A DNA stretch of 64,000 nt from assembly GCF_022045235.1 (NCBI RefSeq), contig NW_027266341.1, positions 2,604,001 through 2,668,000 of the forward strand, written 5' to 3'. The notes under the pieces were generated by a model. It did not search any database. It saw only the letters and a program-made list of their open reading frames with translations, and was not told the DNA's origin. This stretch comes from Haliotis cracherodii (lineage: Eukaryota). Numbering within the stretch: the stretch's first letter is position 1; the number at the start of each line of letters is the position of its first letter. Positions 31,483-59,192 of this stretch are shown here, one piece after another. The translations under genes were made by a program, and so were the position numbers.

Positions 31483-31795
31483 TCACTTAACCTTCCCGAT
31501 CTCACTGTATTCACCATCAGTTCCCCGTGACGTGTTGTCAAGGGTTTCATAGGTCCCTGCTGCGATAGAGTCGGACACGTCACATGACGTCAGAACAGTG
31601 GCATCAGTTTTTGCATTTGTTTGGCCAGATTTAACGGTGCAGTAAGGCTCTCCTTTCATCTTGGCGTCATATGAGACGGCATTGAGACTGTCGTATGGCC
31701 TAGTTTCTGGGCCAACGTCATCACTGGCCTGCGGTGGTTCAGTTGGAACGAGTGATACAGTGGTTGGGCGCGATTCAGATGTCTTGTGTAGGCAT
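31483..31795 (-). CDS. Gene 2 cytoplasmic tail exon (YDSL, YCTV, YETL, YSEI)
   Basis: Acceptor cacattccag|A TGC CTA; lies within ORF 31483..31812. Confidence 0.85.
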
Positions 31796-34700
31796 CTGGA
31801 ATGTGAACACAATCGAAGCTTGGTGTAAAGTACATGAAAGACATAGACGCATTATCCAATATGATGTTGTTATTAGATATGATCCTATTTTTTGGACCCC
31901 AAAAAACACAATGCTTTTTGATTTTTTAAAATATATATCTTGGAACTATATATTGTGACCCATTGACCTGTTCCTTCTCCTCCAGATAACAGCACTGACG
32001 ATGGCACCTACTACAGCACCAGCCACGAATGCAAGAACCACTGCGACAGCCAATTGGCTCAAGTTATACCCGGCGGCTTGTACACACCTCGCATCTTCTG
32101 AATACATAAAGGACAAGATCACGCAATGATGTTTATACAAATATGTTTATACATTAAAAAATGTAAATTTAACAAACGATAGAGTATAAGCTGTGTCATC
32201 AAATACAAACGTGGTCCTGCTTTTGAAATAGTTTGTGACAATTCTCAACCTTGTCTGGGATTTGTGGCATTTCATGTTTTAGGGGGTTTATGAACCTCTC
32301 GCTTGCATAGATTTAAAACATAGATTAGTGTGTGAGTAATGCATGTGTACCAGTCGCGACAATTAAAACAGATATGACTTTTTGCATTTTGTTCAGGATA
32401 CAGCCATTGTGCTGATCAGTACTTCCTTATGGAGCTCCGTTATTTCATTTTATTTTGGTCTGACATGGACATGCATATGTTACTACAGATAGAGATGTTT
32501 CATTAACTGCCTTATCTTTTGCATTGAATCAATCTATGAAGGCAGTCTCGAAAAGTAAGAGCTTTACAAATTGACAACAATGTGTGTGTTTGTGTGTGTG
32601 TGTGAGTGAGTGCTATCCCACTGAGATACAATGTCGCTGTCGTTTGGTTTGACTTGGCCAGGAGATCGATCCAAAAGACCACGGAGGGTGTTCAATAGGT
32701 TTACAGATGGGAATGATGATTAAAACATCAACAACTCTACGGAGAAACGGCACCATCAGTTATAGCCGATGTCAGGAACACAAGCTTTAGTGTTTAACAC
32801 ACGCCTGGTATTGTTTCTGAAATGACTGGGGGCTAACACGCTTTGAATAACACACTTGTTGCAGATTGAGAATTCTCTTCTTTGTCCAAAAAGAAATTCA
32901 ACTTTGTATTGAGATAAAAGTTTATAGAAAAGGCTGATTACATTTTATAATTTTCCCCAGGGTTATGCTTGTCTTCTTAGGACTAACTATTGTCAACAAC
33001 ACATATTAAATAATAAGCAGCAACTGCAAGTCAAAGTGAAACTTACCTATGATTTCTAACTATGAACCATATTGCCAAAACAAATAATGTTTATATGACA
33101 ACAAAATGAAGTAACTGTTACAGGAAACATTCAATATTGTGATATGAGAAATCACGCAGATTCAGAGATCGATGCATTGGCCTCTTAACATTATACATGC
33201 ATAGTTCTGAAAACGAGGTGCAAAACAAAATAATGTGCAACAAAATAATGTTCTATCTTTCCAAATTAAAATGATGGTGATCCCTGTGCTTTTTACTTTG
33301 CCTCGAATTCACACCAAAGTCACTGGATACCTCGTAAACATATGAGTATTGATATTATTTTAGTTTTGTTGAATCATCATTTACGTTAGTGTACAAGAAA
33401 ACAATATAGTCTTAATTTGTCAAAGCAAATACATTTCTCACTGACGTATTTCCATCTATTGCAAACGTGCAGTGCACCGATGAGAATGGCTTTCAATTCC
33501 AACTGCTCTTCACAATTTGATTCCAGCGTTTAATGTTGCATTTCTTTGTTTTACAAATATCCGTTACCTATTAAACACATAATACCTTGCCATATTACCC
33601 TCAATCCACTGCCAACTCTACAGTCACTGCCTACCTGTTGCCATAACATAATTACCTGTACAGTCCGCTTGTGCCCACCCTGTATCACATCCTCTGTCAC
33701 AGTCCCCTGTTGAGGCACAGGAAGAGTTTCCCACACAGTGTCTGGAGGCACATGTCTTGTCACAGTTAGCTCCGTAATGATTTATATCACATGCTGTAAA
33801 ATTATCGAAGGAGCATTATGCCATCATATGCCGTGAACCTAAGATTGGAAACATGGCTGAATTTATGTCAATGTTTATCTTCATATGTTAACTCTGATCT
33901 TAGCCTTTTTTAACATGTACAAAATCTAGCCTCCCTAATTTGTTTTTTATGTCTGGAATACTATCATTACATAGTAAGCCTCTCATAAAGGAGAATCATT
34001 ACGTCCAACAGTTGCTTACAGTTGTGATACATATTTCAATGTTTCACTGTGTTCAATTTATAATGTAAACTACGGTTGTCACCTTCTCTGCAGTCTTCAC
34101 TCATCCACCCTGGCGCACACCCGGAAACACATGTCCCTCGTACGTGATCACATGGCGAGTCTCCTGCACACTTCCTGTCTGTGCAATAGTTTCCGCAGCT
34201 CTGTCCATAACTTCCAGTTGAGCATGCTGTGAAATCATAATTTCATAAGTATATTACCAAGCATCTATTGCTAATAAGTGTTATGTTACTGCTTCAAACA
34301 CGTACGGCTACCATAGCTCAGCATCACACCTGATTCATTATAAAGTATTCAGGCCAATTTTTAAGAAATAATTTACTATCTTTCCGAATGAAAACGATGT
34401 TGATCGGTGTTCTTTTTGCTGTTTCACTAATTCACTCCTTACCTTGTCAACATAATTTAGTTTTTCAGAATGATTTAAGTTAGTGTTTTAAGGAAACAAT
34501 ATATTCTTGATATGTCAATGTATCTACATTATAGCAAATAGTTACACACGTCCTCATTGGCGTAATTCCATTAATTTGAACAGTATAATAGTCGGATTTG
34601 TACCATCGACTCTGCTTCATGCAGATATTTCTATTGGATATGGAAAGGGTTTTGTCGCTGTATTTCCATTAATTAAGAACGTGTAGCGCATCGATTACAT

Positions 34701-37700
34701 CAGCTATCAATTCCAACTGCACTTCACACTTCGATTCCAACTCTTGATGTTGTATTTCGTTGTATTACAGCTATTCAATATCTTTTCAAACATATACTAC
34801 CTTGCTATATTACCGTCCAGCCACTGCCAACTCTCTACTCACAGCCAGCCTATTGACATAACATGGTTACCTGTACAGTCCGCTTGTGTCCACCCTGTTT
34901 CACATCCCACTGTCACAGTCCCCGGTTGAGCTGGAATACTATTATAAAATAGTAACCCTCTCATAGAGGAGAGTCACAACATTCAGCAATTGGGTACAAT
35001 TTCGATACATATTTCAAAGTTTTGCTGCGTTCAATATATAATATAAACTACGGTTGTCACCTTCTCTGCAGTCTTCACCCATCCACCCTGGCTCACACCC
35101 GGCAACACATGTCCCTCGTACATGATCACATGGCGAGTCTCCTGCACACTTCCTGTCAGTACAAGCGTTGCTGCATTTCTGTCCATAGCTTCCACTTGAG
35201 CATGCTGTGGAGGAATAACATGAGTATATTACAAAGCGTCTATTGCTAAGAAGTGTTATGTTTATTACTTATCTTAATTATCGCATCTTTAATGTTATCT
35301 AACTCCTCTATAAACATAAATGTAGTTTGTGCCATCGCCATGGATCGGTTAAAACAGGATAGCATCAGCGGTAATGTGTTCTAAATGGTTAGTTTTTAAA
35401 TGTATGATCAAACCGTTTCCCATTGCCCTGAAAGGAAAACCGTAAGCAGGCAACATCACATCATACAATGGTTAAATTATATTTAACAGTGTTTGAACAT
35501 AGCTGTCATGAACATAATACAAAAGGTATTATTTCAGTTTTTCCTGGATGAATCCCTATAGTACTTGTTCTGATTATAAGTCGGTCTCCAAGCAAGAATG
35601 CATCATTCAGAATGCATCTCAGATGTTCTTCATTTTTTTGTTCTTTAAGCGACGTTTCGTGACCTCGATGTTTTTTGTTTGCGATACGTTTTATGTTAAA
35701 ACTCGGGCTTGCATTTGTCTTTAACGACGAAACGTGTCTCAAGAGCCTGTAAACTGATTTTGTCCAAATGTTGGTCGTGTATGTAGACTAAGAATTACAT
35801 ATTCAAAGGTCTCATGAAATAATTAATTTAATATGACATAACTCCATATGACATAACTTCGAACGAAATATGTCCATTACTTAAACTCCATAGCTACTTC
35901 TGGCGTGATTAAGGCAACTCCAGTTTCGGTCGGTTTCGTTATTCTTTCTCAATTTGAAACAGAGATATTAGTACTTCTGGTGCATTACAACTAAAACCCA
36001 AGTCCTATGTCTCTGGTTCACAGTGTAATAAAGGTCTTACTACTTCCGATTTTGTAGAACTCCCTTCCAGTTTCTGAAAACACTACACTAAAACTTTAAC
36101 TATTCAAATTTGTCTAAGAACGTAATTAACTCTTGTTGTAATTAGAGGACACTATGACACCAGATATCGCTGTTTACAGAACTGGACTGACCTTATTTTT
36201 GAAATATGTGAGGCGAGAAAGGGTGTGTGGCGTGGTCTTGGAGACTAGATATTTAATAAAAAATAGATATTTTACATATAAAAGTAACAATATGAGCCTT
36301 ATTGTTCTTAAAGCCAACTGCGTGGTATGTTGCACATAATATACACCCCTAGTATGTCTTATTTAGACTCGAATATTTACAGGTAGAACATAGTTACGTG
36401 CGTCATTAAACATGTGCAAGATCAAGATTGTTTGCAGTGGAGTACGACAGATTTAATGGATGCTCTTTCAATAGTTCCAACCTTGTTTGTCATACATGGG
36501 TCTCACTTGTATGATCACACAATTTTAAGATTAATATATTGAGTTGTTGGGTGTTTGTGGAATAATTCATTGTCATGTTGCCATAACGTAGCTGTAGTGT
36601 TGCTGACTAATATACATTTTACTAACATATACCAATTTATCAATCACGTTTTGTTAATAGCAACGACGTGAAAATAGACCAGGACTCCTAATCCCGAGGA
36701 ATCAATGTTCTGGGCAATGGAGAAGTGGTCTACAGTCTCCAGGACAGACACCACCACCGACTGCATCTCCTCACCTGTATCACACCTGTCTCCCTGCCAC
36801 CCTGATCTACAGTCTCCAGGACACACACCACTAACTGAATCTCCTCACCTGTATCACACCTGTCTCCCTGCCACCCTGGTCTACAGTCTCCAGGACACAC
36901 ACCACTGACTGAATCTCCTCACCTGTATCACACCTGTCTCCCTGCCACCCTGGTCTACAGTCTCCAGGACACACATCACTGACTGAATCTCCTCACCTGT
37001 ATCACGCCTGTCTCCCTGCCACCCTGGTCTACAGTCTCCAGGACACACATCACTGACTGAATCTCCTCACCTGTATCACGCCTGTCTCCCTGCCATCCTG
37101 GTCTACAGTCTCCAGGACACACACCACTGACTGAATCTCCTCACCTGTATCACACCTGTCTCCCTGCCACCCTGGTCTACAGTCTCCAGGACACACACCA
37201 CTGACTGGGTCACACGTTGCTTGGAAGCAATGGCAGGACTGATTGCAGCTATCGCCGAAGACACCTGGGCTACAAACTTGAAATAGGACGATAGTGAATA
37301 TTATTGCTTCCAATGTCTGTATTAACAATTTTATCGGTTAGCTTAACAGTACCAAATATGATATATTATCCAACTTAAGAAAGAAATCAATAAAGATGTT
37401 TGTTGGGTCTTTACTATTTTGTTTTACAGCTTGCTTAATTTAGATGTAGCTGGGTGTGTTGGAGGGTGTTACTGTACATTAAATTTCTCTATATATAAAG
37501 AATGTAGGTCATCCGCCTATGGTCACTAATTAGTATGTTTCAATACGAAAACGTACTTGTTTTATGTGGCTATATTATATTGTCCGCTATGACGTCAAGA
37601 CACGAGGGAGTTGTCAAATATACAAAGAGAAAACGGCACAACTGCGCTATGTTTAACTGTAAGCCATTGTAAATCCGCATGCGTCATGTGCGTGGTGAAA

Positions 37701-40700
37701 ATTTGCTTTGGATCACGACGATGCATTCTATTTTATTTTTGATCCTGTGTACCCAAACAGTTCCCATACAGCTATCGATTTTGATTTAGATTATCATCTT
37801 AAATGTCCTGAGGACATAAGTTGGTAATGATAAAGAAGAGTGTCCAGTTGAAATCAGATACGTTGAGGACAGAAAGTGAGGGTTTCTCAACAAACAGCTC
37901 CCCACTCCCCAGCCGACCAACCAATGTTCACCCAAAGCCAAACAGAACATGACCCGTCTCCACCCAAGAATAGCAAATGGTCGGCCCCAGGAAACGGGTA
38001 AAACAAATTGTTTTGTCCACACTTGTGCATACATAATAAAAATATAATGTGACGACTTTTCTTCAGGTAAACATTTGTTTTAAATTTAAGAAATGAAGTG
38101 GCTTTTTTATTGAACCTACTTATATAAATTCTCACGATTCTCCAGAGGAAATATGTACGTGCTACAGTGTGTTAATTCACAAAGCATCTTTTGGGGAGAA
38201 TATGCGTTACACCACACGATGAATATCATTTCTGTGTTCAAAGAAACAGCAGATGATCAAAGTTTTAAAAAGTGTATGTCATTTTAGAAAATATGGAAAA
38301 ATGTACTATTGAAGCAGAGAAAATACAAATATTCAATTCACGATTGAAACAGTAAACCACTTCATGAAATGAATGTGTTGTGTACTGATTCACCCGCACA
38401 CCAAAGTAAGTAAGAAATATGTACAATGGTGTTGATGTTGACAGTTGGTTTTTCCTTGATGCAGGGATTGCATCAAGCATACACGAGTCATGTAAGTTAA
38501 ATAATCAGAATCAATCTGCGCCATTTGTTTTTATATTACCGTTGATACTAAGTAGAAAGGAAGAGAAGTACCGTTACAAATAAAACTATGAGACGTATAA
38601 CCTAGAGAATGCAAATGACAATTTTTAAAATTTGTCACAGGGTTATCCTACGTACTTCCCTTTCATTGGCCCTATTTTGAGTGGTGACACTTAGGCAAGC
38701 GAAAAGCAGAAGTTACCGACGTAAATCGGAGTAGCCATTTTTTGTTTGAAATTAACGTGTACATATGCTATCAACAATTATCCGTACCATAAATTTCCAC
38801 CTCACACAGATTTAGCCGTATGCTGTGTGTGATGGTGAAGTATCTCCCTGTGCCGTCACACGTCACGTCGTACACGCTGTTGTTTGTTTTGACTGTGTCA
38901 TTGGGGAAGGTGTAGCAGGTGACGCCGGGTGTGAAGCTGCTGGAGTTACTCAGGGAGAGGACAGCAGTTCTAATTAATTGAATATCTAAAACAGGCAATG
39001 AAAGAAATGATATGCTGACTGACGGTGACATTGTGCTCTTGAACAATGACAAATAGCTAGCAAATGACACTTTGTGTGATCCAGTTCACCTGTCATCTTA
39101 TTGCTGAAACATGTGTGAACGTCAAATAAGACCATGTGACCACATTCAGTTTAAATGTGTAGGAAACATTAATTTGTAAGTCGTTTTTGATCAGCATGTG
39201 TGGCAGAGTGATATTTTGTACATAAAAGTTAGGTTTTAATTCTATTTTAGCCATAGCTTTATACACATTCTATTTCAGATTTGGATTAAGTAAATAGTTT
39301 ATTTACTATGCCTTACTTTTGTCATATAATTGTATTTCAGCTTAAACATTAATACCATAGCTTATCTGTTCATTCAGTCTATTATTTATCAAGCAATTAC
39401 TAACCATACAACTGCATGCTTTTCACCCACAGCACTTAGTATCCCACCCAACGTTTAGACTACTCTATTGTTCTCTGTGGTCACTCACAGCTGACCACAG
39501 GTACATGTATACCTTTGTACTCTTGTGATCTGGGGCAGTTGCCAGATTACACATGAAGCATATACATCAGTCATTATGTGTATAGTCCTGGATGGATCTC
39601 GTGTTTAGAATTATATTCATGGATCCAATGGATGTGTTAATTTCATGGATTTTAAGGTTTGTTGTGGTATATTTCTTGTGTGATGCTTTTTTATGTATTT
39701 GTGTATTCTAATTTTTAAAGTTAGAGCTAGTTTATTGCTAGTCAGGTTATGTATTGAATTCACAGTTCAGTGTATTATGGTTATGATAATTTTATATGAT
39801 AACGTATTATAAAGCAGTTTCTTTAATTGATAAATAGCTAATTTAGCCTGGGCTATTATCATCGTACTTGAACATGAACTAAGTAAAACTAAACCCTAAA
39901 TAAACTATACCTCATATCACATTAAGGTAATTGTGCTAATTATGTATAAGAAAGTATGCATATGTGTGAAAGTGCATTATTTAAGTTATTTGATAAATCT
40001 CTGTTTTAAATACCTATTTTACTTTTGTGTTGTGTATAGTGATAGTGTAAATAGTATCTGCATTACTTTATACTTTGTCAATGCAGATGTAACTGGCATT
40101 ATTTTAGAAGCCTTGGTGTCATGGCATAGGTTTCACCAATCTGGTAAGTATTGTTTATGTGTTATTCATGAATGTATAAATGTATGTATCTATATATATG
40201 CTGACGTTGTATATCTTTGTAATTATCACGTAGTCATGTACTTGTCTAATGTTATGACAGTAGACAGGGTTTATGTTTAGTTTACATTGATTATAGCATC
40301 ATAAGCATATATATTACTGTATCATTGTGCAGGTTACTTACTACATGAGTAACATAGGTTTCTCGCTATTTTAAGTTCATATAATTGAATGTCCATTAGA
40401 TGTAAGGCCCTTATCTATATCATAACAATGTCAATGTTCTATATCTTTTGTGCAGTATGTCTTAATATGTATACATTGTTTCAGGCCGTATTTTTCGCCT
40501 CTCACATTTGTCTTCTGAGAGAATAAAAAAAATCAGCTCATTCCCTGTAGCCGTTTGCGGTGTGAAACCGTCTCGACAAATAAGTGCTACTATACATGTA
40601 CTAACATGTTTTGGGACGCCTCATCATAATATCCAAATAAATCAAATAACGCTGTCTAAACTGATACATACATCCTGCCCTGTTGTATATCCTGACGTCA

Positions 40701-43700
40701 TGTATCCTGTACTGCTGGCCAAGGTCCACTGTCCACACAGGTTTAGGGTCCTGATACGCAGAGTGAAAACAGGAGTTGTGGAGCACATCCTGGTCCCGGT
40801 TCCCATCTACAACTTTGTCTGCAGTCCAGCCGTGCCTTGCGTAATCAGTTGGGGACGAGGTTGCTGTCTGGTTGTAGGCAATGTTCCCTTACACGAAAAT
40901 AAGTACGAAGATAAATTACTTTTAAAATTGAAATTTATTATATGTGAAAAGTAAGGGTTTTAACTTCCAAGGAATATGATCTTGGTGGATCCAACAGATC
41001 GTATTTTCAAAGATATGTCATACAAGTACCAGGCCTTCACCAGAACTGGTTGTATTGTCCGGAAGGTGCCTTTTTCTATTGTAGAAAAACTGCTCTGCAT
41101 AAAAAGCAATGTTTACCTATGTCTTATACAAGTTTACATAATTTTGGCATATATTTATTTGAGAGGGCTAACTTCATAGAAAAGAATATTTCCATGAGAA
41201 AGAGAAAACTACGGGAAATCAGCAATTACTTTTTGTATTTACTATGTCCATAAACATGATGTATTTTTCGATTGGTATTGAGTATTGATGCACAGCATAT
41301 TCAACATTGAAGCCCCATCGTCATTTGATAACCTAATCAGGGGGACATCAAAATAACAGATATAAAACAAACCAGGACAAAATTCAATCTAGCTTATCGA
41401 AAATGGCATTGTGATCACTTTCAAATCGTACCCTTATAGGTACCACATACATGTATGCGATGTCGGCAACATGCTGTAATTGTTATTACCCCACTCAGAC
41501 ATAGTATAATGTCTCCGAAACGACTAGTGAATGTTTTTGCCGCTTGATACCGAACGTCAGACAGGTGTTACAACAAGTAGAAGTCTCGTGGTATGACGAG
41601 GACGGTGATCGAAATCCTGACATAACGCTCTCCTGGCGGATGCTGTACCAAAAGACAACAGAGGCGGTCCTTGAAAATATGTAAACTGCTTGGTTCCTGA
41701 ACATGATTGCCTCACCAGTGTCATGTGACGTAAACCACATTTAGACGATCTTGTTGATGAAGCCAGTGAAGTGGCGCTGGAGAGGCTTGTTCGAAAATAG
41801 TCGGAAAGATGAAATAGTAAAGATGCATAGTTGGTCTTAAATAATGCAAGATACGAAAATATACGGAAGTTACGTTTGTAAAAGGGCTATCCAAGTTTTG
41901 ACTAAACTTAGTATCTTATAAATGGTATTTCCATGCTCAATATACGAATCATGTGCAAGAATGTTATGCAGAGTGTCTGGTTGATTATGTTTGGATCTCT
42001 GTATTCTCTATTGATTTTGTGTGAGGCAATATATCGTCCGGAAGACTAAGTTTGGTTTTAAAAGTATGTGAGATAGCAATAGCGGATACTCGGTACTGCT
42101 CTACTTTTATGTGGAGTGCAAGAATCATGTTTGTTTGCCATTTGCGACGGTACTTCTAGACACCGGTGCCGTAAAAATACCACAATGTATGGGTGGTATC
42201 CAGAGCCATGTTCCACAAAGCGATCGTAGCGCTACGACAGTCGTAAGTCTATGTTAAAGTTTGGGAGTTACGATCACCTCACCACTACAATCGCTTTGTG
42301 GAACTGGGCCCATTATCTGTAGATTGGATTGTTCATCATTCGGGACTGATTCAGAAGGGGTGATGGTCTTATAACGCCAGCAGTTCGTTAGGTATCGTCT
42401 TTCAAATCTAACCTTGTGACAGTAACACCCACCTTTCTGACAGGTTTGCCCATTCCCACCAAACCATCCAGGATCACATGCACCGTTACAGACTCCAGTT
42501 GTCTGGTTACAGGGCTGAGTACAGTGACAGGAGTAGCTACAGGTGTCTCCGAACTTTCCTATCGGGCAGCTGGTACCTGTAAAATGTAGAACAAAGGTTA
42601 ATGTTCATGCAATGCTCTCCAAGCCCCATTACCCATAAACACATGTTCAAATGTAAGCATGGCTCAGTCACAAACTTCTTACAGCCAGATAGGATGGTCG
42701 GGTGGTTAAAGCGTTCGCTCGTTACACCGAAGACCCGGGTTCGATTCCCGACAATTGATTTACGTATGTTTCACACAACTGAAGAGATTGAAAGTGATCA
42801 CATTATTAATTAATCTTTCAGATTTACCTGGGTCCAAGATAGAGCTGACATCTTTAGATATAATTTGACAACAGATGAAGTATCTTATTTACTGGAAAGG
42901 GCAGTAAGTACAGCAGTACATACAGCATTCGTTAGCAGAAAGAAATATGGTCACGTTTCTTAGCAGTAAAATTTGATAGTTAATGTGTTGTATGTATCAG
43001 AATGTAAAGGTTTGTGCGCGAAATAACGGTATTGTGTCTGACACATTTGAAAGCGAAATTGGCGTTAAGCATGGATACATTTTAAGTCCGTTTTTGTTCA
43101 CCTTCTTTAACAATGAATTTGCTCAACAAATTCAGCAGAACTGTTCTGATGGCATCCAACTTCACCCGGAAACTATAGAGTTATTTCTTCTTTTGTTTGC
43201 CGATGATATAATAATTTATTTATTGTCATGGAAGTTGCATGCTCACACAGCTGCAGTACAAGCTAAGAAGATCCTAATTGGAATTCTTCAACATATGAAA
43301 GTTCTTGGAAGTATATCCTATAATACATTCTTTAAGATTTTCGATATAAAAATAAGCCCAATTTTGTTATATATAGCAGAGGTTTGGGGATTAGAAATGA
43401 CTGATGTTATGGAAAAGGTACATTTATATGCATGCAAAAGATTGGTGTGAAACTTAGAACGTCTAATCTAATGGTTTATGGAGAATGTGGACAATACCCA
43501 TTAATTATATTTGCAAAGTTAAAGACGATAAAATACTAGATTAAATAAGTTAAAATGGCTCAACAAGATATCGAAAGAAATGTTATAGCATGTTATAACA
43601 GAGTTGAAGTTGTGAGAGAAGTTGGGAATTGGGCATGTCGTCACAATGTTGTCGAGGTGTCTATGAGTAATACATGTATATGCGTTGCAGTAAGCTAAGC

Positions 43701-43923
43701 TGTGTTAACCTTGCATGCATGTTTGTCCAGCGTTACTGTAAATAACGCAAGTTTTTGTTGTTGATATCAGTATAAATTAATAATATTTTCAAAGGATTAT
43801 TTTACAAAGTATCATGTTCGCTGCCCACAAGAAAGAAACCTGTAGTTATTACCTACCCAGCATGAGTTGTATCCACCACCCTGACACAGCCGCAGTAAGT
43901 ATCAGCCACCTCACACCCGCCAT
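31483..43923 (-). CDS. Gene 2: F-type lectin/EGF-repeat single-pass receptor with intact tyrosine-motif tail (about 541 aa)
   Basis: Exons 43923-43857, 42576-42433, 40887-40672, 38985-38788, 37276-37145, 35204-35061, 34226-34083, 33793-33656, 32097-31968, 31795-31483 total 1626 nt with an open frame throughout. Confidence 0.85.
31968..32097 (-). CDS. Gene 2 transmembrane exon
   Basis: EDARCVQAAGYNLSQLAVAVVLAFVAGAVVGAIVSAVIWRRRNR. Confidence 0.88.
33656..33793 (-). CDS. Gene 2 EGF-like exon
   Basis: ACDINHYGANCDKTCASRHCVGNSSCASTGDCDRGCDTGWAQADCT. Confidence 0.85.
34083..34226 (-). CDS. Gene 2 EGF-like exon
   Basis: ACSTGSYGQSCGNYCTDRKCAGDSPCDHVRGTCVSGCAPGWMSEDCRE. Confidence 0.85.
35061..35204 (-). 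CDS. Gene 2 EGF-like exon (duplicate of 34083-34226)
   Basis: ACSSGSYGQKCSNACTDRKCAGDSPCDHVRGTCVAGCEPGWMGEDCRE. Confidence 0.85.
36727..37207 (-). repeat. 74-bp tandem array of an EGF exon 3' half plus splice donor, about 6.5 copies
   Basis: CTCCTCACCTGTAT at 36767, 36841, 36915, 36989, 37063 and 37137. Confidence 0.95.
37145..37276 (-). CDS. Gene 2 EGF-like exon following the lectin domain
   Basis: VCSPGVFGDSCNQSCHCFQATCDPVSGVCPGDCRPGWQGDRCDT|gtgagg. Confidence 0.88.
38788..38985 (-). CDS. Gene 2 F-type lectin domain, C-terminal exon
   Basis: YIQLIRTAVLSLSNSSSFTPGVTCYTFP...VTCDGTGRYFTITHSIRLNLCEVEIY. Confidence 0.9.
40672..40887 (-). CDS. Gene 2 F-type lectin domain, N-terminal exon
   Basis: NIAYNQTATSSPTDYARHGWTADKVVDGNRDQDVLHNSCFHSAYQDPKPVWTVDLGQQYRIHDVRIYNRAG; the acceptor is a weak AAG. 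Confidence 0.85.
42203..42311. mobile_element. Small hairpin MITE (Harbinger-like GGGCC ends)
   Basis: GTTCCACAAAGCGATCGTAG pairs with CTACAATCGCTTTGTGGAAC as an inverted repeat. Confidence 0.7.
42433..42576 (-). CDS. Gene 2 N-terminal EGF-like exon
   Basis: GTSCPIGKFGDTCSYSCHCTQPCNQTTGVCNGACDPGWFGGNGQTCQK. Confidence 0.88.
42900..43620 (+). pseudogene. Decayed non-LTR retrotransposon reverse transcriptase fragment
   Basis: GVKHGYILSPFLF and LLLFADD motifs in ORF 42983..43450, with internal deletions. Confidence 0.85.
43857..43923 (-). CDS. Leader exon C (proximal signal-peptide exon of gene 2)
   Basis: MAGVRWLILTAAVSGWWIQLML G|gtaggt; 67 nt. Confidence 0.78.
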
Positions 43924-45483
43924 GTTTGTGAACCAGGGAGCTTTAACACTAAAATGATTTGTTGACACTTAAAATGCGTACATGCATATATGGCATCTAT
44001 TCAAAGCTCAACATTCAATACAAATTGAACGGGCATTAGAAACCTTTACGATTATTGTTATCATTTTTCATATCGTTTATATATGGCTAACAATATCCTA
44101 AACACTAATGTCGATATGGGCGTATGGTCTATGGAGATAGGTTTGTCTTGTAGTTAAGCATATTGTATCTGTTTGCGACACATCATGAATGTTTAGTCGT
44201 CCAGACTGCGATAGTGCACATGTCAATGTCAAATGCACACCCAGGTCAGATATTGCCTTTGGATAACTGAGAGAGTTTCTCTGATAACGTAATTCACATC
44301 AGCAAGAGAATAAAATGATTTAATTTGTGATTGGGTGTGTGTTTTTCACATGCCACTGTCACAGTCTGAAGGTGCACAGGAAGAAATGGTAAGAAAACAA
44401 AAGAAATAGGCATGTGGCTATAGACTGTCACAAATATTCAAGCTATATATCACGGTGATCTGAAAATAATAAAAGCTAGACCAGATCAATCAGTTGTTGA
44501 TAGCACGACCAACACACATCAACAACACCCGTTCCTTGTTTTATTCTTATTTATAAAGATGATGTACTGGGAACCAATGGAGTAAGAATGATAATTCTTT
44601 GAATGAATGTGTTTAAAAGTTCAAAGTATAATTTCTGGAAATGATGTTTCACCTAAATGAAGTTAAGGCTATATAATGTATTCATCGTTATATGTTAAAG
44701 CAGTTAAACATAAGTAAATGAAACCCATTACCTTTGTTATAGACGACGTAGCGCTATTTTCTGGCCGAAGCAAAAACAAAAGAAAACATTGTGAAAATTT
44801 ATTTAACATGTGATGGGATCTTCAACGTTTATTACTAATTTCCTCTTCTTGAAATGTCTCAAGCTCAGTAATCCTGACGTCTAACACATAGAATTCGCGA
44901 CCTGAGTGTCTTGGCTCTTGTTGAGTTCATGCCATGTGGGGATGCTATTCAAACATTGTCCCCACGACTAACATGCATATGATTAGCTGGATGTTAATAC
45001 ATTTCATGTGTGGGTCTCCTAAACGATTGAGAAACACCATTCGTAAATAAAATTTACACACATCCACACCTTTTGAATTAAATGAACGTTTCCTAACTAA
45101 ATAGTCTTAAGTATTGATAATATTATGTTCTCATTATGATTCTAACACAATAAAATACATTGCTCGGATCATTCAGCAGATCTATTGCTATTGCATACAA
45201 CAATTGTAACAACACTTGAACGAATTTTTAGACCATACAGAAAGTCTGAAATCAGAAAATATTTCGCAGTTTTGTCCGACACATGCATTTTGACGACATT
45301 TAATTAAAAATTGATATTTAATTAGGAAAACCTAGTTTATAAATATATTTTCTGAACAGTGCAATTGTCAATCATACAAGTGTCTAAAATGTGTTCGAGC
45401 AATTAAAATAGGAAAATATAGCAGAAAAACAGAATATGTGATTCACTAAGTATATCTAGAACTATTGATACTCACATTGATGA

Positions 45484-45762
45484 GACCCGTGAAGATTCCG
45501 GGGTAGAATAGATCTTTAGCAACCCATGCTTGCTGTAAAAGGTGACTATGCTTGTCGTAAAAGGCGACTAACGGGATCGGGTGGTCAGGCTCGCTGACTT
45601 GGTTGATGCATGTCATCGATACCAATTGCGTGGATCGATGCTCATGATATTAATCACTGGATTGTCTGGTCCAGACTCGATTATTTACAGACCGCCGTCA
45701 TATAGCTGGAATATTGCTGAGTACTGCGTTAAACAACCAGCCAACCAACCAACCAACCAACC
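45484..45762 (+). mobile_element. SINE with Nin-like domain (CCCATGCTTGTCGTAA.AGGCGACTAA) and (CCAA)n tail
   Basis: Closely similar copy at 61045-61320; degraded copy at about 49430-49610. Confidence 0.8.
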
Positions 45763-46324
45763 ACATTGATGAACGACATGGTCTGGTCTGTCTACCGGAC
45801 TTTTTAAAAAAACCATATATATATATGTTTTAATACACATGCAACCTCGAAATCCTGTCATTATGGAGCAAGAGTTGTGTATGCATTGGTACCCGAGATG
45901 GAATGAGTACGAAATTGACCTTCTGCGCCAATCAACTTTACCTCACTTTACGTGCTTTGCTCTTGTTTCTTATTTATGAATGATTATTGCGTAATTAATT
46001 TACAAACCATTTAATACCAACTGTATACTGTACACAGAAAAACAGCAAATTTACAATATAAGTAAATGGGCGAATGATTGATATGTTATAGGTCGATACT
46101 TTCAGTCACGCACTACAGTTAACAGGTTAATGTTACCAAGACAATATTACCAACTAAATCTTGAAAGATACATCAGTAATCTAGGAACTGACTTCTGCGA
46201 AGTGGATTTACACCAGTTTTTACTTTTGTCACTCAGTAAATGCAAGAACTTAATTGAGGTCATTTCTGTTAAAAAAATCAAAACAAATAATAACAACTTT
46301 CACAGAATTCTTATTAATCACTTA

Positions 46325-47775
46325 ATCGTCTTATGAAACTTGATGTCTTTGTACCTGTGGATGAACCAACAGATTGGGTCAGCTCGTTAGTGATAGTACC
46401 AAAGAAATCAGGGGAAATTAGAATTTGTATTGACCCTAAGCGCTTAAATGAGGCACTTCGTTGTGAGCATTTTAAGATGCCTACGATCGAGGAAGTCTTT
46501 TGTACATGTGACTTGTCTGCTGGATTTTTGCATCTTGAACTTGATCACGAATCCAGTTTGCTGTGTACTTTTGGAACTCCGTTTGGACGGTACAGATGGA
46601 CTAGACTACCATTCGGACCATCCCCTGAAATCTTCCCGAAACCCTCAAACCAAGCTTTGGAAGGACCACCAGGTGTCAAATTCATTGTGGATGACACGGT
46701 TGACCATGATAAGAATCTGGAATGCCTTATGCAGCGTTGTCTTGGTATCAACTGAAGTTGTGCAGAAAGGAGGTTACCTTCCTTGGTCACATCTTCACTG
46801 ATCAAGGACTTAAGTGTGACCCACAGCAAATAAAGGCTGTGTTGGAAATGCCAGCACCACAGAATGTTGAGGACATTCAATGCTTCGCAGTTAGTCAACT
46901 ACCTTGCAAGATATTAACCTCGTCTGTCAGGAGTAATGCAACCACTTCGACAATTAACACATACTGACGTGGACTGGACATGAAGTGAAAACAATGGTCA
47001 GGGAAGCTCCAGAATTGGCATACTACAATGAAGAAGTAGAACAGATACTGCAGTTTGATGCTAGTTCCACTGGACTAGGTGCTGTGCTGTTACAACAAGA
47101 CAACCAAATTGCATACGCTAGCTGTGCCCTAACACCGTCTGAGCCAAGCTATGCACTGATTAATATTGAAAAGGAAATGCTGTCTGACTTCAAAAGTTCC
47201 ATACATACACAATTGGTCGGACAGTTACATTGAAAAACGATCAAAACCACTGGAGGCGATAACCAGCAAACCCTTAAATTGTGCTCCCACATGACTACAG
47301 TCCATCATTCTGGCTATGAAGCAGTATGACGCCACTGTCAAGTACAAGAAAGGTGCAGATGTTGTCTTCGCAGACACATTGTCAAGAGCGTATTTGCCAA
47401 GCACAGAGCGAAAGATTGAAGAGCCTTTCAGACAGGTGAACATGGCAACGTTTGCCGATAACGGATGACAGGATCAAGCAGATCTGAGAAGAGACTGAAA
47501 AAGACGAAACTCAAATAAGTTTTGTTAAGTGGGTTGCCAGAGGAGAGATGCTCTTTGCCGATGGAGTTATACCCATACTTCAACTGTAGAGACGAGATCA
47601 CAGAACAAAATGGTCTCATATACAGGGGAGAAAGGCTGGTCATACCTTACAACCTAAGAACTACAATGAAAACCAGGATCCATCCTCTCTCCAAGGGATT
47701 GAAGGTTGTTTACGGCGTGCAATAGTTGTATTGGCCGCACAAGTCTGACGACATTAAACAGTACATCAGAAAATG
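46325..47775 (+). pseudogene. Decayed Ty3/Gypsy pol (RT, RNase H, start of integrase zinc finger)
   Basis: PTDWVSSLVIVPKKSGEIRICIDPKRLN; TFGTPFGRYRWTRLPFG; VTFLGH; LQFDASSTGLGAVLLQ; ADTLSRAYL; GERLVIP. Many stops and frameshifts; no LTRs seen. Confidence 0.9.
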
Positions 47776-47928
47776 ATGATCAAGAACTTATGGACACCAA
47801 AGTCCTGGCTGACTTGGTCGAGGAGCTAAAGCATCTTTCAAGTCAACAAAGAGAAGCATTGCAGACTATGATCATTGATCACGTTGGCTGCTTTCCAGAT
47901 GCCCCTGATACTGCCAACAGCATAGTGT

Positions 47929-48105
47929 AAGTGAGTGAGTGAGTATGGTTCTACGCCGCTTTTAGCAATATTCCAGCAATATCACGGTGGGGGAACACCA
48001 GAAATAGGCTTTACACATTGTACCCATGTCGGGAATCGAACCCGGGTCTTCGGTGTGACGAGCGAATGCTTGAACCACTAGGCTATCGGGACAACAGCCC
48101 CCCAC
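47929..48105 (-). mobile_element. tRNA-derived SINE with (CTCA)n tail, inserted in a second Gypsy fragment
   Basis: Same family as 9632-9797. The left flank encodes LKHLSSQQREAL..FPDAP, a Gypsy pre-RT segment. Confidence 0.85.
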
Positions 48106-48963
48106 CCTGGTACATTTACAGTTGTAAAATTAGTGATGCAGTTCCGACAGATCAGAGACATACGTGTCTCACTACACATACGTGATTCATGATGTATACT
48201 TATTATATTGTCCACCCATGTCACAAAAACTGGATTGATCATTGCTATTATTCAGGACAACGTAGCTGATCATAAATAATATATATATTTTATAATACCT
48301 CCACTAAAACAGAAGCTTTAGCAAATACACCCCACAATCATCCCGTTCAAATTTCAGTGAAGAAAACAGCAATTGCACTTCTTGGTCCTCCCTCTAATTT
48401 CAGCTTAACAGCTCCACCTTTTGTTAATCAAGAAAACAGTTGGAGATTAAAAGGGTATTTAGGTGAAATTAGTCGTTTCATAACCTTTACATGAATTTCA
48501 CCCCACTGCAATAATGTTCTCAGAACAAGAGGAGAACAAGAATACCAGCAGCTACATGCTTCTTTTAACATTGTGATATTTCCACAAAATGTATAATTTC
48601 GTTGTGCCCTACTTGAAACGTATTGCCCCAGGTATTAATTGAGTTATAATACAAACGTACCACATTTGTGTACCACAAAATGTAGACTTTTCAAGGCCGA
48701 CATCATCCTATTTACGAACTTGCAATTGCTCCACGTTAACAGGGCCTCAGTAAGGTAACCTGCCAGAACATCCACGAAGTGCAGCAAGCTACGTCTATAG
48801 TTACTAAATGATATATGGTATATCAAACTTGTTATAAAATACAAATGATTAGATGTTTAAAATGTTACCCTATCTATAGTTAAATGCTTCCTTATTTGGA
48901 TTTCGATACCATTAGGTATTAGTAACTCTACTTGAAAGAGTAACTCGTCCCGTGACTACTTAC

Positions 48964-49030
48964 CCAGAGTGTGGTGTATCCAACAACCTGACACAGCCGC
49001 CATGAAAACCAACCACCCTTCTCCCGCTAT
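48964..49030 (-). pseudogene. Leader exon B, start codon mutated from ATG to ATA
   Basis: (I)AGEGWLVFMAAVSGCWIHHTL G|gtaagt; 67 nt, paralogous to leader C; internal ATG at 49003. Confidence 0.65.
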
Positions 49031-50363
49031 GTTGACTAACCAGGAAGTAAAGCTCGCACGTATGTTAGAGTAGGCGTGAATGGAAAGTTCCTATTGACAT
49101 GTACAGGAAAGTAGTGTTCATGTCGTACATTTGTTACCAAGAGGATATAGTTTACATGTAAATGCTGGTGCGCTCGCCTTCATTACAAATCCATCTGAAA
49201 ATACCACCAACACTTTCATGATAACTAGGCTGGAATTGAAACATAATTATAATTTTGCCCAGCTTTTCAATAAAGATTTCATCAAGGAAGACTTGGTTAA
49301 GTCATTCAAGGAATGTTAAGGTAGACAATAAGAGGAATTTACTGAAGATGACACGGAGCTTCATAACATGATACGTAAATCTATCCAATACTTTGAGTTT
49401 TCATATTTTACACACTGACACTTGTAAAATTAGGTTGGTTGATCTTGTGGCCAGGCTAAGTGACTTGTATGATCGCGTGATGTTGTATTCCGACGCGTGG
49501 AAGATTGGTCACAATGGCAATCACTAAGTTGTCTGGTCAAGACTCGATTGTTTGCAGGGTGCCGCCATACGGTTGAAGTATTGCCAAGTGTTACTTCAGG
49601 CAACTAGCAGACAAAAGTATGCTTTCAGGACAAAGTGTGTGAATGGTGGGTGCTATCCATAGACCAGGAGATGTTTACCCTTTTCGCGAACAGGTGTTAT
49701 CACACATTTTTCGTCACTAATGATGGGCAGTTAAAGTTGCATGAATCAGGTACATATTCGCTGAAAGGAACCTGGTCAAATGAGGTGAGGTGTGGTGAGG
49801 TGAATGTTAACGTCACGTTCAAGATTATTTCACTCATAAATGAAGTGCATGAATTAGTCCGGACTTATGTCTTGATAGTGCAATCTCATTTAGATACCAT
49901 GCAGCACTTTGTAAGTTTGACTCACACATTGTAGAACCTCCGAGTCGGGCAGTCCTTACTTTACCCCTAACACTGAGCCCCAGACAGCGAAACAGCAAGT
50001 GTAATCTTTTAATGTCTTTGGTATGACACAACTCGGGAATCGAACCATCGACCCCTTCCCCTCTTCAGACACAGAGGCGGTTTGGTCAACAGATGGTAGT
50101 AATCAAATTATATTACATGCATTTTGTCTTAGCCTTTGCTATAAGACATCGTTATTGATTCACTGCAAACCATCATCTTCTACAACTTTACTCCCCTTTA
50201 AGCAAGCCATTAACTGTAATACCGTCGTGCTCAGTGTTGTTTACAATGATTGTCTTTGCTAAAACTCTCGTGCAAGAATAATGCAAAATGAGGTAGTGAC
50301 ATTACAGTAATCGACCTAAAGATACAATGTATATCAAATAAGGAGGCATGATGTGTCACTCAC

Positions 50364-50430
50364 CAATTATAACCTGTATCCAGAAAGCCGATGTGACCAC
50401 GGTGACAGTCAGTATCCACACACCCGACAT
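50364..50430 (-). CDS. Leader exon A (distal; duplicate of the gene 1 leader)
   Basis: MSGVWILTVTVVTSAFWIQVII G|gtgagt; 67 nt. Confidence 0.65.
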
Positions 50431-51497
50431 GTTTGACAACCAGGAAATTGTTTCCGCTTGACTGTATAGCTGGGACACCTGATGTTGCTCACTGTCAAAA
50501 TAAACATGGACATCTATGAGCTAGGGGCTGCTTACATACAATGTAAATATCTGAAATGCATGTCTGTCTTTGTCCTGTATCCGTACTTTGATACGCATGA
50601 TACGCGTTTTCCATCACATAAGAACCTGCAGGACATATTTGTGCCTTCCACACAGCTCAGGTGGAGTCAACTTTCCTTGGACACACTTGTCTCACTGGTT
50701 ATAGCAAGGTTGATACAGTAATGTCCTGCTTCGCGACCTGTTTCTGTGGTCTAGTAGAGCGTCAGCCTCAGAGCGGGAGGTCGGCGGTTTGATCAAGTGG
50801 CCGCGTCCTACCAAGATTAATAATTAAGATGGTACTTGTTGTTACCCTGCCTGGCGCTTGCATTACAGTCCCAAAACAAGGACAGGTATACTTATTGTAA
50901 TTGTAATTGTGTTATGTTTAGATAGTATTTTTGAATGTTGTGTGAGTTATATGCTGTCGCCTTGCTTTGAAGTAATCATTGTTAATTTAATATTTTTGTT
51001 TGTGCAATGATAATACCATCCATGTCATTATATGCAGTTCATCTCGTAGTATCTCAACCCTAACGCCTTTACTTTACCACTCGCCACTGGTATATTTATT
51101 TGTATCCTTTGCCATGTGCTCGTACGGCAGTTTGTTTACACTTCCGGTGGTCTCGCTCTCAGTGTATCTCTTAAATTGTAATAATGTTTGTTTATCACTC
51201 TTGTCAGGCCAATTGACCTTGTTTTAGTATTATTCTCCCATAGCCGTGTTATCGTTAACCAACATCCACGTAGATACATTTCTTATATACTCCCATGATA
51301 TCTTTCACTACCGGGCATGCACAGTGTGAAGGAATGACGTCACATGTGTATTTATGTAAATTCCTTTCAGCCTCCATCTTGCCGTTTAACAATCGTTCTG
51401 TCAAGTCAATTTGGTAAACACCACCATTTGACTTCTTATCCATCTGCAATCTTCATCCCTGTCAGCAGAGGGATACTTTACAGCCTTATGCTTTGAA

Positions 51498-52861
51498 ATG
51501 GCTGACAGGACTACCAGACGTCGCAGCAGATCTGCTAGTTTCAACACAAGTACTGCTAGGGTTAACGTGGCGACCCTTGACCCAAACTAAGATGGCGACC
51601 ACCGCAGCATGCCCAGAACTAGGAAGGCTCCTTATTTCACTTTAGCTGACCTTCGACTTCGTCTCGCCAGTCAAGGTGTCAGCGTGCCTGCATCGTGGAA
51701 CAGACAGTTCCAGCTGTATACTGAAAACAACCGAGGGATTTCCATGTCACATCCCATAACAGAGACGACAAGCAACCTTGGCTTCCGTTTCCGAGTGTCA
51801 ACAAGACTTACCAAGCAGTAATCGCAACACTAACTTGCCGGGTACCATTACTAGTTCATCAGTTCATCCAACAAGTCCCCAGCCTGATGTATCTAGCTTG
51901 ACAGATTCAGTCCCTGTGATCCCCTCGGTGGCGGGATTGCAAAAAGAAATCGCCGAACTTAGACAACTGATCACAACCACAGGGCTCAGCGCGATGCCTC
52001 TACTAGGCCACCCTACACCGAATACCCTGAGTGGTATCGAGACTTCTCTCCTGACCCCCGCTAGCAACTCAACAGAGGTTCCATCAGACTCCTTACCTCA
52101 TATCCACACAGTGTCCCCCACCTTAAGGAAAAAAGATCCAGGAAGATAAGGAAGGAAGGAAGGAAGGAAGGAAGGAAGAAGTTAACTTGGCTTTGTTGAC
52201 ATTACCTAACCAGGACAGTTTGGATACTAGAGTAAATGAATTCGACGGGAATGTATACTCGCTCAAAGATGACCCCAGGCCGAATAGGACACTGACACTC
52301 GGAGAGTTTATCCAGGCATTCGGTATTTACAAAGACATTTATTGTGAGAACAATGATGCCAAAAGGAAACAGCTGGATGGCCACGAGCAGACTGTGATCG
52401 AACTTGCTACTCTGTATGGTGTGACATGCTACTACGACTACCACAAACTTTTCGCAGCTCGTGTGGCAGCTTTTCAAGCAAAAGCAGTTGTCATTCGATG
52501 GGACATGAGAGACTCAAAACTCTACAGCCTGTGTTCCTCAGGGCGCCATACCAGGACGTGTTCAGCGTGTCAAAGTGTAACCCACGGCACCGACGTCTGC
52601 CCGAGTATAGCTACAGCTCGCCGACCAATTGGCAGGCCTCAAGGCAGACATGTTCCATATGACCAAAGAAATGTGGACAGTGATGCCACGTACATAGACT
52701 CCAGAGGTAGACCTCGTGTTCGATGTGATGGACAAGAGATCTGTAACAAATTTAATGATAGCGGCTGTAACCGCCAACAGTGTCCTTTCATACACACCTG
52801 CCTCATTTGCCTTTCAAGAAAGCACGGCAAGACAAAATGCCAGAAAGCACAGAAGGATTGA
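51498..52861 (+). pseudogene. Ngaro gag-like ORF1 (disrupted) with Cys/His fingers
   Basis: VSPTLRK..VNLALL, LTLGEFIQAFGIYK, YYDYHKLF, CSACQSVTHGTDVC, CNKFNDSGCNRQQCPFIHTCLICLSRKHGKTKC. Confidence 0.8.
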
Positions 52862-52879
52862 CTACACTAAGCCTTAGAG

Positions 52880-55430: not shown

Positions 55431-56442
55431 TCTACAATACAGATTCCATGCCATATTATTCATGTATTAGTTCCCAGTTATCAGGTTTCGTGACCGTGTA
55501 TCTTACTCATCTTTTGGGGCACTCGGTCGTACACAACCTCGTTTTGGCGTCTCAAGCCATTGCATGCCTCAGGCAACAGCATTCCATGGCTTGGAGCCCC
55601 CCAAAATTCCTTACCTACCTGGTCCGGCGCAGCCACCAGTTCACATTCCATACCCGCAGGGTACCCTTATCATTCAATCTAATAATAATCTGCTCCTTTT
55701 CCTCAACACCTCTCTACCCGCAGGTGAGCCCTATCCTCGCAGGCCAGCATGGCCCTAGAACTAACCCACGTCCGCTGGACATTCCGTGTACGACCGAGCA
55801 GCCCCCTTGTATATATCATATATATCCCAATGTGTATTAAATTATATTGTTTGCTTTACCCTTTGTCGTGTTTTCATTGCACAAAATGTTAATGTAATAT
55901 TTTTGTTTGTGCAATGATAATACTATCCATGTCGTTATATGCAGTTCATCTCGTAGTATCTCAACCCTAACGCCTTTACTTTATCACTCACCGCTGGTAT
56001 ATTTATTTGTATCCTTTGCCATGTGCTCGTACGGCAGTTTGTTTACACTTCCGGTGGTCTCACTCTCAGTGTATCTCTTAAATTGTATTAATGTTTGTTT
56101 ATCACTCTTGTCAGGCCAATTGACCTTGTTTTAGTATTATTCTCCCATAGACGTGTTATCGTTAACCAACATCCATGTAGATACATTTCTTATATACTCC
56201 CATGATATCTTTCACTACCGGGCATGTGCAGCGTGAAGAATGACGTCACATGTGTATTTATGTAAATTCCTTTCAGCCTCCATCTTGCCGTTTAACCATC
56301 GTTCTGTCAAGTCAATTTGGTACCCTCCATCCACCCTCTAACCACCTTGGGGCTGCTTAGTTTAAGCACATTATGTCTAGAACTAACCCCCGTCCGCAGG
56401 ACACTTACCTACCTGGTCCAGCGCAGCCACCAGTTCACATCC

Positions 56443-57850: not shown

Positions 57851-59192
57851 GCAGGCCGGTTGGCATCTCAAGCCATTGCATGCCTCAGGCAACAGCATTC
57901 CATGGCTTGGGGCCCCCCAAAATTCCTTACCTACCTGGTCCGGCGCAGCCACCAGTTCACATTCCATACCCGCAGGGTACCCTTATCATTCAATCTAATA
58001 ATAATCTGCTCCTGTTCCTCAACACCTCTCTACCCGCAGGTGAGCCCTATCCTCGCAGGCCAGCACGGCCTTAGAACTAACCCCCGTCTGCTGGATATTC
58101 CTTGTGCGACCGAGCAGCCCCCTTGTATAATATCATATATATCCCAATGTGTATTAAATTCTATTGTTTCCTTTACCCTTTGTCGTGTTTTCATTGCACA
58201 AACAGGAATTATACAAACGCAGCCTGCATGCGTTGGAATGGTTTTAGAATTTACAATTACAATCGGTGTAGCATTAATAACGCCATCACCAAGAGTTACT
58301 TTCATTGTACTATTTGTCACCGCATCAGATTTGAACTTTATAAGCAGACCGAAGATACCATGTCGACAGTCAGTCATCTAGACACCCGCCATTACGAATA
58401 ACCGGGAAGTTCTTCACGGCTAAGTGTTTGCCTGCACTAATCACACCGGCCTGTTGTCTCTGACATTATCACAAAAGTACTCGCGCACAAATACGTTAAC
58501 AATAGAGAGTCGAACTTTGGGATTATAATAATGCAAAGATCGTGCAATTATAAAGGTTCAGAGCATCAAAAATAAAATAGTTTTTGTCGAAGCATCATCA
58601 CAAAATTCACCGCCACAGTCGATTTACGAATGTTAACATTTTGTTGCAAATGAGAGTTGACCTCTTTGGATCCAATAGCCAGGCAATAGAAACGTCGTGT
58701 TCACTATGTCAGCAGATGCAATCCCGTATCGTGAATTTGGCTGCTCGTAATTTATGTTGTCCAAGGAGGTTACAAGTTCATAGCAAATATAATATCTGTT
58801 GACTTGCATGAAATCACATGACACGACGCTCTGAGTGGATCGTGTCTCGGGCTCCCCTTTCCTACACTGGGTCGAGTCTGATATAATGAAGCTAGATAAG
58901 TCCTTTGGATGAAGATGTTTCTGTTGATGATGTCTGTGGTAAGGTTATTATTAATATATTTTCAGAATCTAATCTTTCCTTATTATTGATATCATGTGCA
59001 AAGTTGCGACCCTTGGGCACGCCAGGAACCTATGACAGTGGGTTTGAATCCCGGTTCGACACGATTATGTTTTTAGGTTTATCAGCGCCATGCCCGTGCT
59101 CGTGGATTTCACCAAAGTTGTAAACGTCTGAGACCTGCATCACTTCGGGCTTTCCTCCCATATTAAGCTGACACGCCGTGATATAACTTGAA

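What the first reader, a model, noticed from the sequence alone, without database searches (positions are those of the whole stretch)
43857..50460. Three paralogous 67-nt signal-peptide exons stacked upstream of one receptor body
Leaders A (50364-50430), B (48964-49030, ATG changed to ATA) and C (43857-43923) all end in phase-1 donors compatible with exon 2 at 42576. No EGF or FTP exons were seen between them. They are either alternative promoters/first exons or orphan leaders left when paralog bodies were deleted by unequal crossing-over. Gene 1 uses an A-type leader.
Basis: partly seen in the sequence, partly recalled or inferred. Interest (0 to 1): 0.7.

Follow-up and report, generated by a model that had tools for sequence, protein, structure and literature searches.

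The report
Stacked start exons in abalone receptor
An abalone cell-surface receptor gene carries three related signal-peptide first exons that were likely piled up by unequal crossing-over; predicted gene models suggest two are likely still used, which would change where the gene switches on rather than the receptor itself.

Summary
Confirmed. Three paralogous 67-nt signal-peptide exons (A, B with ATA, C) with phase-1 GT donors lie upstream of one EGF–F5/8C(fucolectin-like)–EGF–TM receptor body in a Haliotis genome, with no relic body exons between them. A is a captured orphan: its own intron 1 is cut about 16 nt before its native exon 2. B is an older sister of C, and C is the leader type native to this body clade. 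Usage favours A and B, not C. A red abalone RefSeq gene with a closely related body has B-start (7 isoforms) and A-start (1 isoform) on one body. This gene's own model splices A→B→exon 2. None of 12 models with this exon 2 uses C, and one RNA-guess contig joins an A-type leader to this exon-2 type. Stacks recur: 6 of 18 family units examined have two or more full leaders. Limits: the models are predictions, no raw reads were available, and the leaders are not clearly more conserved than their flanks. Signal peptides are cleaved, so any effect is likely regulatory. It is a known kind of thing (alternative first exons from chimeric duplication).

The parts
50364..50430 (-). Leader A: ATG, 22-codon signal-peptide-like exon (MSGVWILTVTVVTSAFWIQVII), donor gtgagt; captured from an A-type paralog
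   Evidence: first exon of RefSeq model P0001
49723..50363 (-). Remnant of A-type intron 1, cut about 16 nt before the acceptor of A's native exon 2; junction near 49723
48964..49035 (-). Leader B (48964-49030, start codon reads ATA), donor gtaagt; an AG just upstream gives a 72-nt in-frame internal exon 49035-48964
   Evidence: ATG-bearing form in P0013/P0037 and at G000:C78:2560022
45782..47769 (+). Broken Gypsy-like retroelement remnant between B and C, shared with the upstream paralog
   Evidence: RVT_1 E 6e-4, below the curated cut-off; the Gypsy label is recalled
43857..43923 (-). Leader C: intact ORF (MAGVRWLILTAAVSGWWIQLML), donor gtaggt; type native to this body clade; upstream TTCC core changed to TCCC
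42433..42576 (-). Common exon 2 (first EGF-like repeat)
   Evidence: spliced to the next exon in an X1 contig with 0 differences
40672..40887 (-). F5/8C (fucolectin-like) domain, first exon
   Evidence: 5' boundary read from the sequence
38789..38983 (-). F5/8C domain, second exon (approximate bounds)
37145..37276 (-). EGF exon, skipped in P0001; its 3' half plus donor is repeated as a 74-bp array at 36726-37207
33656..35204 (-). Three EGF exons (35061-35204, 34083-34226, 33656-33793)
31483..32097 (-). Transmembrane exon (31968-32097) and cytoplasmic-tail exon (31483-31795); no phosphatase domain
58317..58417 (-). Dead leader-like copy D (in-frame stop at codon 5, no donor); twin at about 25117-25217 upstream of gene 1
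22674..22740 (-). Gene 1 leader (A-type), the counterpart of A in the duplicated block

Best explanation
Three related signal-peptide exons sit in front of one abalone EGF-lectin receptor body; they were likely stacked by unequal crossing-over in a tandem gene array, and the captured outer exon A is predicted to be the main start here, with B likely reused as an internal exon and C likely mostly bypassed. Steps: (1) Shown: each leader comes with a short conserved upstream motif and a phase-1 donor, so any of them fits exon 2 in frame. (2) Shown: C-type leaders belong with this exon-2 clade; B is C's sister; A belongs to another clade and carries its own truncated intron 1. (3) Inferred: a duplication or deletion junction near 49723 put A and its upstream DNA in front of an existing B-C gene, before H. 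cracherodii and H. rufescens split. (4) From predicted models: in H. rufescens A and B are alternative first exons; here B has lost its ATG and is modelled as an internal exon. (5) Inferred: because signal peptides are cleaved, the result is promoter swapping on a nearly unchanged receptor; the A-B form would add 24 residues at the N-terminus.
For: Blocks of 84-95% identity align window 79029-49869 (running into fetched flank) to 49148-22191 in order. A's intron homology to A-type genes ends at 49723, 16 nt before their exon 2. Trees split leaders into A/E versus B+C (100/99) and exon 2 into two clades (100/99). The clade of this gene's exon 2 is directly preceded by C-type leaders at this gene and three other loci, and by an E-type leader at one. 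H. rufescens XP_048237039-46: 7 isoforms start with B and 1 with A; X1 and X2 are identical from residue 23. P0001 (XP_071088038.1) = A+B+exon 2. 0 of 12 models (4 genes) with this exon 2 start with C. The S-A-F-W form of A occurs on this body type in both species. One X3 contig joins an SAFW-type A leader to this exon-2 type (28/30 to window A). In-genome precedent: P0022 splices an A leader over a relic F5/8C exon to a later exon 2. A second H. rufescens gene (XP_048243329-31) has three leader types on an identical 616-residue body. 6 of 18 family units in 864 kb have two or more full leaders (hand count).
Against: The isoforms are RefSeq predictions whose read support I could not see; in paralog arrays mis-placed spliced reads can fake alternative first exons, and A→B in P0001 may be an ab initio search for a start codon (my knowledge of such pipelines). 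Leaders are not clearly more conserved than flanks in duplicated blocks: A 61/67, B 65/67 and 59/66, C 65/67, against 92-93% flank identity. C keeps an intact ORF, ATGGCG and a good donor, and C-type leaders are used on related bodies (P0004-6, P0009, P0014, P0053). A has ATGTCG instead of the ATGGCG seen in 22 of 25 leaders, and a 7-kb retroelement lies about 550 nt upstream of its ATG. TTCC is present in only 17 of 25 leaders, so its loss at C is weak evidence. The X3 contig ties at 28/30 with several other A-type leaders and comes from a different organism label. The H. rufescens locus itself could not be read, so whether C is present there is unknown.
Confidence: 0.6

Rival explanations
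1. One working leader, two relics: only A is used (A→exon 2). B (no ATG) and C are decaying leftovers here, and the multi-leader isoforms are annotation artefacts of paralog mis-mapping.
For: B lacks its ATG here and the B copy at C78:2682936 is frameshifted. No significant excess conservation of leaders. Many dead or partial leader copies litter the family. The only clean leader-to-exon-2 contig for this body sub-type is A-type. Two of three H. rufescens genes with this body have A-only models.
Against: 7 of 8 H. rufescens isoforms of one gene start with B. Apart from the start codon, window B encodes the same 21 residues as those isoforms. All three B copies found in this genome lack a body of their own, so mis-mapping from a separate B gene has no obvious source here.
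Confidence: 0.24
2. A selected promoter-choice system: the stacked leaders are maintained as tissue- or infection-specific, possibly cell-by-cell, promoters, as in UGT1 or clustered protocadherins.
For: Stacks of different leader types arose at least twice independently (A/B/C here; an H+F pair at C78:36342038/36352137 and its duplicate). 3 of 11 multi-isoform H. rufescens groups seen differ in first exon, and one (LOC124147532) swaps leader, EGF and lectin exons on a shared 666-residue C-terminus.
Against: No selection signal; each leader here carries its own lesion; stack make-up differs between recent paralogs and between two close species; the variable exon encodes only a cleaved peptide.
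Confidence: 0.09
3. Only the proximal leader C is spliced to exon 2; A and B are silent relics.
For: C is nearest, has an intact ORF, and is the native type of this body clade.
Against: 0 of 12 models with this exon 2 use C; an A-type junction contig exists; C lost its TTCC core.
Confidence: 0.07

Closest known systems
Chimeric genes from tandem duplication (regulatory shuffling; Rogers et al. 2017, PMC5460883, abstract read)
   Same: A duplication junction places one gene's 5' end in front of a neighbour's body, with expected expression change.
   Different: Here capture is serial, the older leaders stay in place, and it recurs across one receptor family.
Variable-first-exon clusters UGT1, GCNT2, protocadherin alpha/gamma (PMC1885805, passages read)
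   Same: Tandem paralogous first exons, each with a conserved upstream motif, in one frame, spliced to common exons; birth-and-death turnover.
   Different: There the variable exon encodes signal peptide plus the recognition domain. Here it encodes only the signal peptide, the array is 2-3 exons, and it differs between close species.
Hybrid first/internal exons (10.1101/2021.05.27.446076; PMC11797052; search listing only)
   Same: B is modelled as a first exon in H. rufescens and as an internal exon here.
   Different: The switch goes with loss of the ATG; it rests on predicted models, not reads.
Gastropod MEGF + galactose-binding-domain receptors and RPTPs (Biomphalaria sudanica SudRes1; PMC12297450, passages read)
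   Same: Clustered paralogs with EGF repeats, a galactose-binding-like domain and one TM helix; some carry PTP domains (P0005); domain loss among copies.
   Different: This gene has a short tail without PTP. Orthology was not tested, and the passages seen do not mention stacked leaders.

Membership tests
Alternative-first-exon (variable exon / constant exon) gene | Tandem paralogous first exons in one frame with donors fitting a common exon | tested here: met
Alternative-first-exon (variable exon / constant exon) gene | Each first exon is separately spliced to the common exons | tested here: inconclusive
   A and B in H. rufescens models; A→B→exon 2 here; one A-type contig; none for C
Alternative-first-exon (variable exon / constant exon) gene | Each first exon has its own active promoter | not testable with these tools
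   Only motif conservation was seen (TTCC 17 of 25, ATGGCG 22 of 25); the ETS and YY1/TISU labels are inferred
UGT1/protocadherin-type cluster | Variable exon encodes the recognition domain | tested here: not met
   Leaders encode 22 residues only; EGF and F5/8C exons are common
UGT1/protocadherin-type cluster | Variable exons held by selection | tested here: inconclusive
   Identity 0.89-0.97 against 0.89-0.93 in flanks; 67 nt gives little power
Chimeric gene from unequal crossing-over | 5' part and body trace to different paralog clades, with a mappable junction | tested here: met
MEGF/galactose-binding-domain single-pass receptor | EGF-like repeats + F5/8C-type domain + one TM segment | tested here: met
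   PF22633 E 5.7e-13, PF00754 E 1.6e-8; EGF repeats and TM read from the sequence
Receptor protein-tyrosine phosphatase | Cytoplasmic PTP domain | tested here: not met
   No PF00102 in P0001; present in paralog P0005
F-type (fucose-binding) lectin | H-x26-R-x-D-x4-R/K motif (recalled) | tested here: not met
   P0001 reads H-x27-R-A-G-x5-R by eye; ligand unknown
Cleaved signal peptide | N-terminal hydrophobic core and cleavage site | tested here: inconclusive
   Best 9-residue hydropathy A 2.5, B 2.1, C 2.0; no signal-peptide predictor available

The most novel reading that the evidence does not exclude
Abalone EGF-lectin receptors use interchangeable promoter-plus-leader cassettes, and in some loci whole leader-EGF-lectin cassettes spliced onto a shared phosphatase tail, as a regulated promoter-choice system: a molluscan counterpart of UGT1/protocadherin clusters for recognition receptors, caught being built by serial capture of paralog 5' ends.
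Probability: 0.12. Interest if true: 0.75.

Novelty: new member of a known kind. Interest (0 to 1): 0.4.

Why it matters
It is a clear, datable case of how alternative first exons arise: the captured leader, its junction and the bypassed native leader are all still readable, and two close species differ in B (first exon versus ATG-less internal exon). A related gastropod receptor class maps to schistosome resistance in snails (PMC12297450), so promoter swapping could be a route to expression diversity in candidate recognition receptors. It also warns that 5' ends in such arrays are easily mis-annotated. If only A is used, it is ordinary birth-and-death debris.

Tried and rejected
No RNA holder is listed on record; the laid runs are RNA guesses kept as contigs. 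Laying 37250-51000 (X1, X2, X3, X5) was swamped by repeats: no leader-to-exon-2 joint among the 15 joints shown (505 hidden). Cover over B and C was near zero in all four runs and over all three leaders in X1; this is not taken as evidence. In one search the two-contig X9 loose end at 42577 fits an A+B mixture 29/30 and an A+C mixture 28/30 under an assumed tie rule; not decisive, not used. A further X3 loose end (42584) is A-type but its body is ambiguous; 6 loose-end rows were hidden. Two X1 contigs stop at 42575 with no loose end; unexplained. The pairwise line for B_2560 was one base out of register; corrected. Rejected: chance similarity; hidden EGF/F5-8C relics between the leaders; a separate B-led gene body in this genome (three B copies, none directly before an exon 2); receptor diversification by the leaders themselves. 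An exact degenerate pattern for the F-type leader found nothing; the protein search did find it. Earlier-findings look-ups returned nothing. Paper searches listed no description of stacked leaders in this family; the library is partial, only listings were seen, and no supplements were read. More distant family clusters on C34, C8 and C5 were not examined.

Full report
Setting. The window is G000:C78:2604001-2668000. A RefSeq protein named for Haliotis cracherodii (P0001, XP_071088038.1) matches its exons at 94-100% in the segments printed. The gene is on the minus strand: leader(s), one EGF exon, a two-exon F5/8C domain (PF22633, PF00754), further EGF exons, a TM exon and a tail without phosphatase. 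Paralogs form three arrays on this contig; I read 864 kb of them. Some paralogs carry PTP domains, as in the MEGF/galactose-binding receptors of Biomphalaria (PMC12297450, passages; orthology untested).

Observation. All three exons are at the stated coordinates, 67 nt long, with GT donors in phase 1. Similarity exceeds chance: 53-66 of 98 positions against at most 48 in 30 shuffles. No exon-2, F5/8C or EGF relic lies between A and exon 2, while the same HMMs find such relics in paralog introns.

Origin. Leader and exon-2 trees each split in two. This gene's exon 2 belongs to a clade directly preceded by C-type leaders at this gene and three other loci, and by an E-type leader at one. B is sister to C (49/67 identical). 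A belongs to the other clade. A's downstream DNA is homologous to intron 1 of A-type genes up to 49723, 16 nt short of their exon 2, and then switches. Ordered blocks of 84-95% identity pair the 29 kb upstream of this junction with the stretch from B to gene 1's intron 1. The simplest reading (inferred) is a tandem duplication or deletion by unequal crossing-over that set an A-type 5' end before an existing B-C gene. The A-B junction was copied again to C78:2561488-2559091 (88.7%), where C and the body are gone and A-B stands before another A-led gene. The B-C-exon 2 block is also present upstream at C78:2683029-2675301. B's own origin, a local duplicate of C or an older orphan, cannot be told.

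Usage. In H. rufescens one gene has 8 isoforms (XP_048237039-46): 7 start with an ATG-bearing B and 1 with A, and X1 and X2 are identical from residue 23. Its tail is 103/103 identical to P0001, while a second gene (P0035) is closer over the ectodomain and TM segment, so orthology is mosaic. P0001 splices A to an acceptor 5 nt before B's ATA, reads B as an in-frame 72-nt internal exon, and skips C. Of 12 fetched models (4 genes) with this exon 2, none starts with C. In contigs of RNA-guess runs, X1 shows exon 2 spliced to the F5/8C exon with 0 differences, and one X3 contig joins an SAFW-type A leader to this exon-2 type. These models are predictions; I could not see their read support, and grouping isoforms into genes rests on accession order, labels and shared bodies.

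Recurrence. By hand count, 6 of 18 leader-plus-exon-2 units have two or more full-length leaders. Three share B and two are duplicates of each other, so about three origins. A second H. rufescens gene has three leader types on an identical 616-residue body. Of 11 multi-isoform groups seen, 3 differ in first exon.

Against a selected system. Leaders are not clearly more conserved than flanks (A 61/67, B 65/67 and 59/66, C 65/67, flanks 92-93%). Each leader here has a lesion: A has ATGTCG, B has ATAGCG, and C has lost TTCC. The AACATGGCG context resembles the YY1/TISU element (PMC2518114, abstract and passages), which would make each leader a compact promoter unit; this is inference from a mammalian element.

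Mechanism. Shown: in-frame compatibility, different ancestry of A versus B/C, a mappable junction, recurrence. From models: A and B are used. Inferred: orphan leaders keep promoter activity and are spliced to the next intact exon 2; P0022 is a precedent, splicing over a relic F5/8C exon. As signal peptides are cleaved (established knowledge), the effect would be on expression, not specificity.

Comparison. It works like variable-first-exon clusters (PMC1885805, passages) but fails their key feature, since the variable exon carries no recognition domain. It fits chimeric genes from tandem duplication (PMC5460883, abstract). B resembles a hybrid first/internal exon (listing only). Searches listed no account of this arrangement in abalone.

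Verdict. Real, explained by known processes, a new member of a known kind; interest 0.4. The bolder reading, a regulated promoter-choice system for molluscan recognition receptors, has probability about 0.12.

Noticed in passing
G000:C78:2669700-2683600 (L011-L012): Truncated upstream paralog: frameshifted B, two intact C copies, two inverted C copies, exon 2, then TM and tail with no lectin or further EGF exons found. Contigs in X1 and X9 carry the TM exon directly after an exon 2, and the X1 contig's differences match this copy: a one-EGF mini-receptor.
   Followed up: partly
H. rufescens LOC124147532 (P0009, P0034, P0020) and XP_048243326-28 (P0055, P0032, P0008): Isoforms differ in leader, exon 2, lectin and EGF exons but share a 666-residue C-terminus with PTP (or a 35-residue end): a variable/constant layout if real, or merged paralogs.
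   Followed up: partly
G000:C78:36342038-36354378 and 36392107-36404735: Independent stacks of two different intact leaders about 10 kb apart, with two partial copies between them, before PTP-type receptor bodies.
   Followed up: partly
window 50980-58202: Retroelement with split direct repeats and a tyrosine-recombinase ORF (PF00589, E 8e-7), DIRS/Ngaro-like by recall, inserted about 550 nt upstream of leader A's ATG and containing a 25-bp tandem array.
   Followed up: partly
window 11899-20765: About 8.9-kb element with 1.2-kb inverted terminal arms (90% alike) inside intron 1 of gene 1.
   Followed up: no
window 36726-37207; much longer arrays at G000:C78:36517000-36523200 and other paralogs: 74-bp tandem repeat made of the 3' half of an EGF exon plus its donor, expanded to dozens of copies in paralogs.
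   Followed up: no
G000:C78:2555351, 2554382, 2601996, 2585273: Relic exon-2 and F5/8C exons inside intron 1 of A-led genes, showing that those genes are chimeric too.
   Followed up: yes
window 59690-60208 and 26672-26839: FLYWCH/MULE-like transposase fragments (label recalled; no Pfam hit for the one ORF tested) in the duplicated intergenic block.
   Followed up: no
G000:C78:37649179-37652612: Inverted duplication of exon 2 and the first lectin exon inside a PTP-type paralog.
   Followed up: no
P0001 versus P0037/P0035: The lectin domain is the most divergent region between species (107-113/138) while the tail is up to 103/103 identical, as expected for diversifying selection or conversion.
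   Followed up: no
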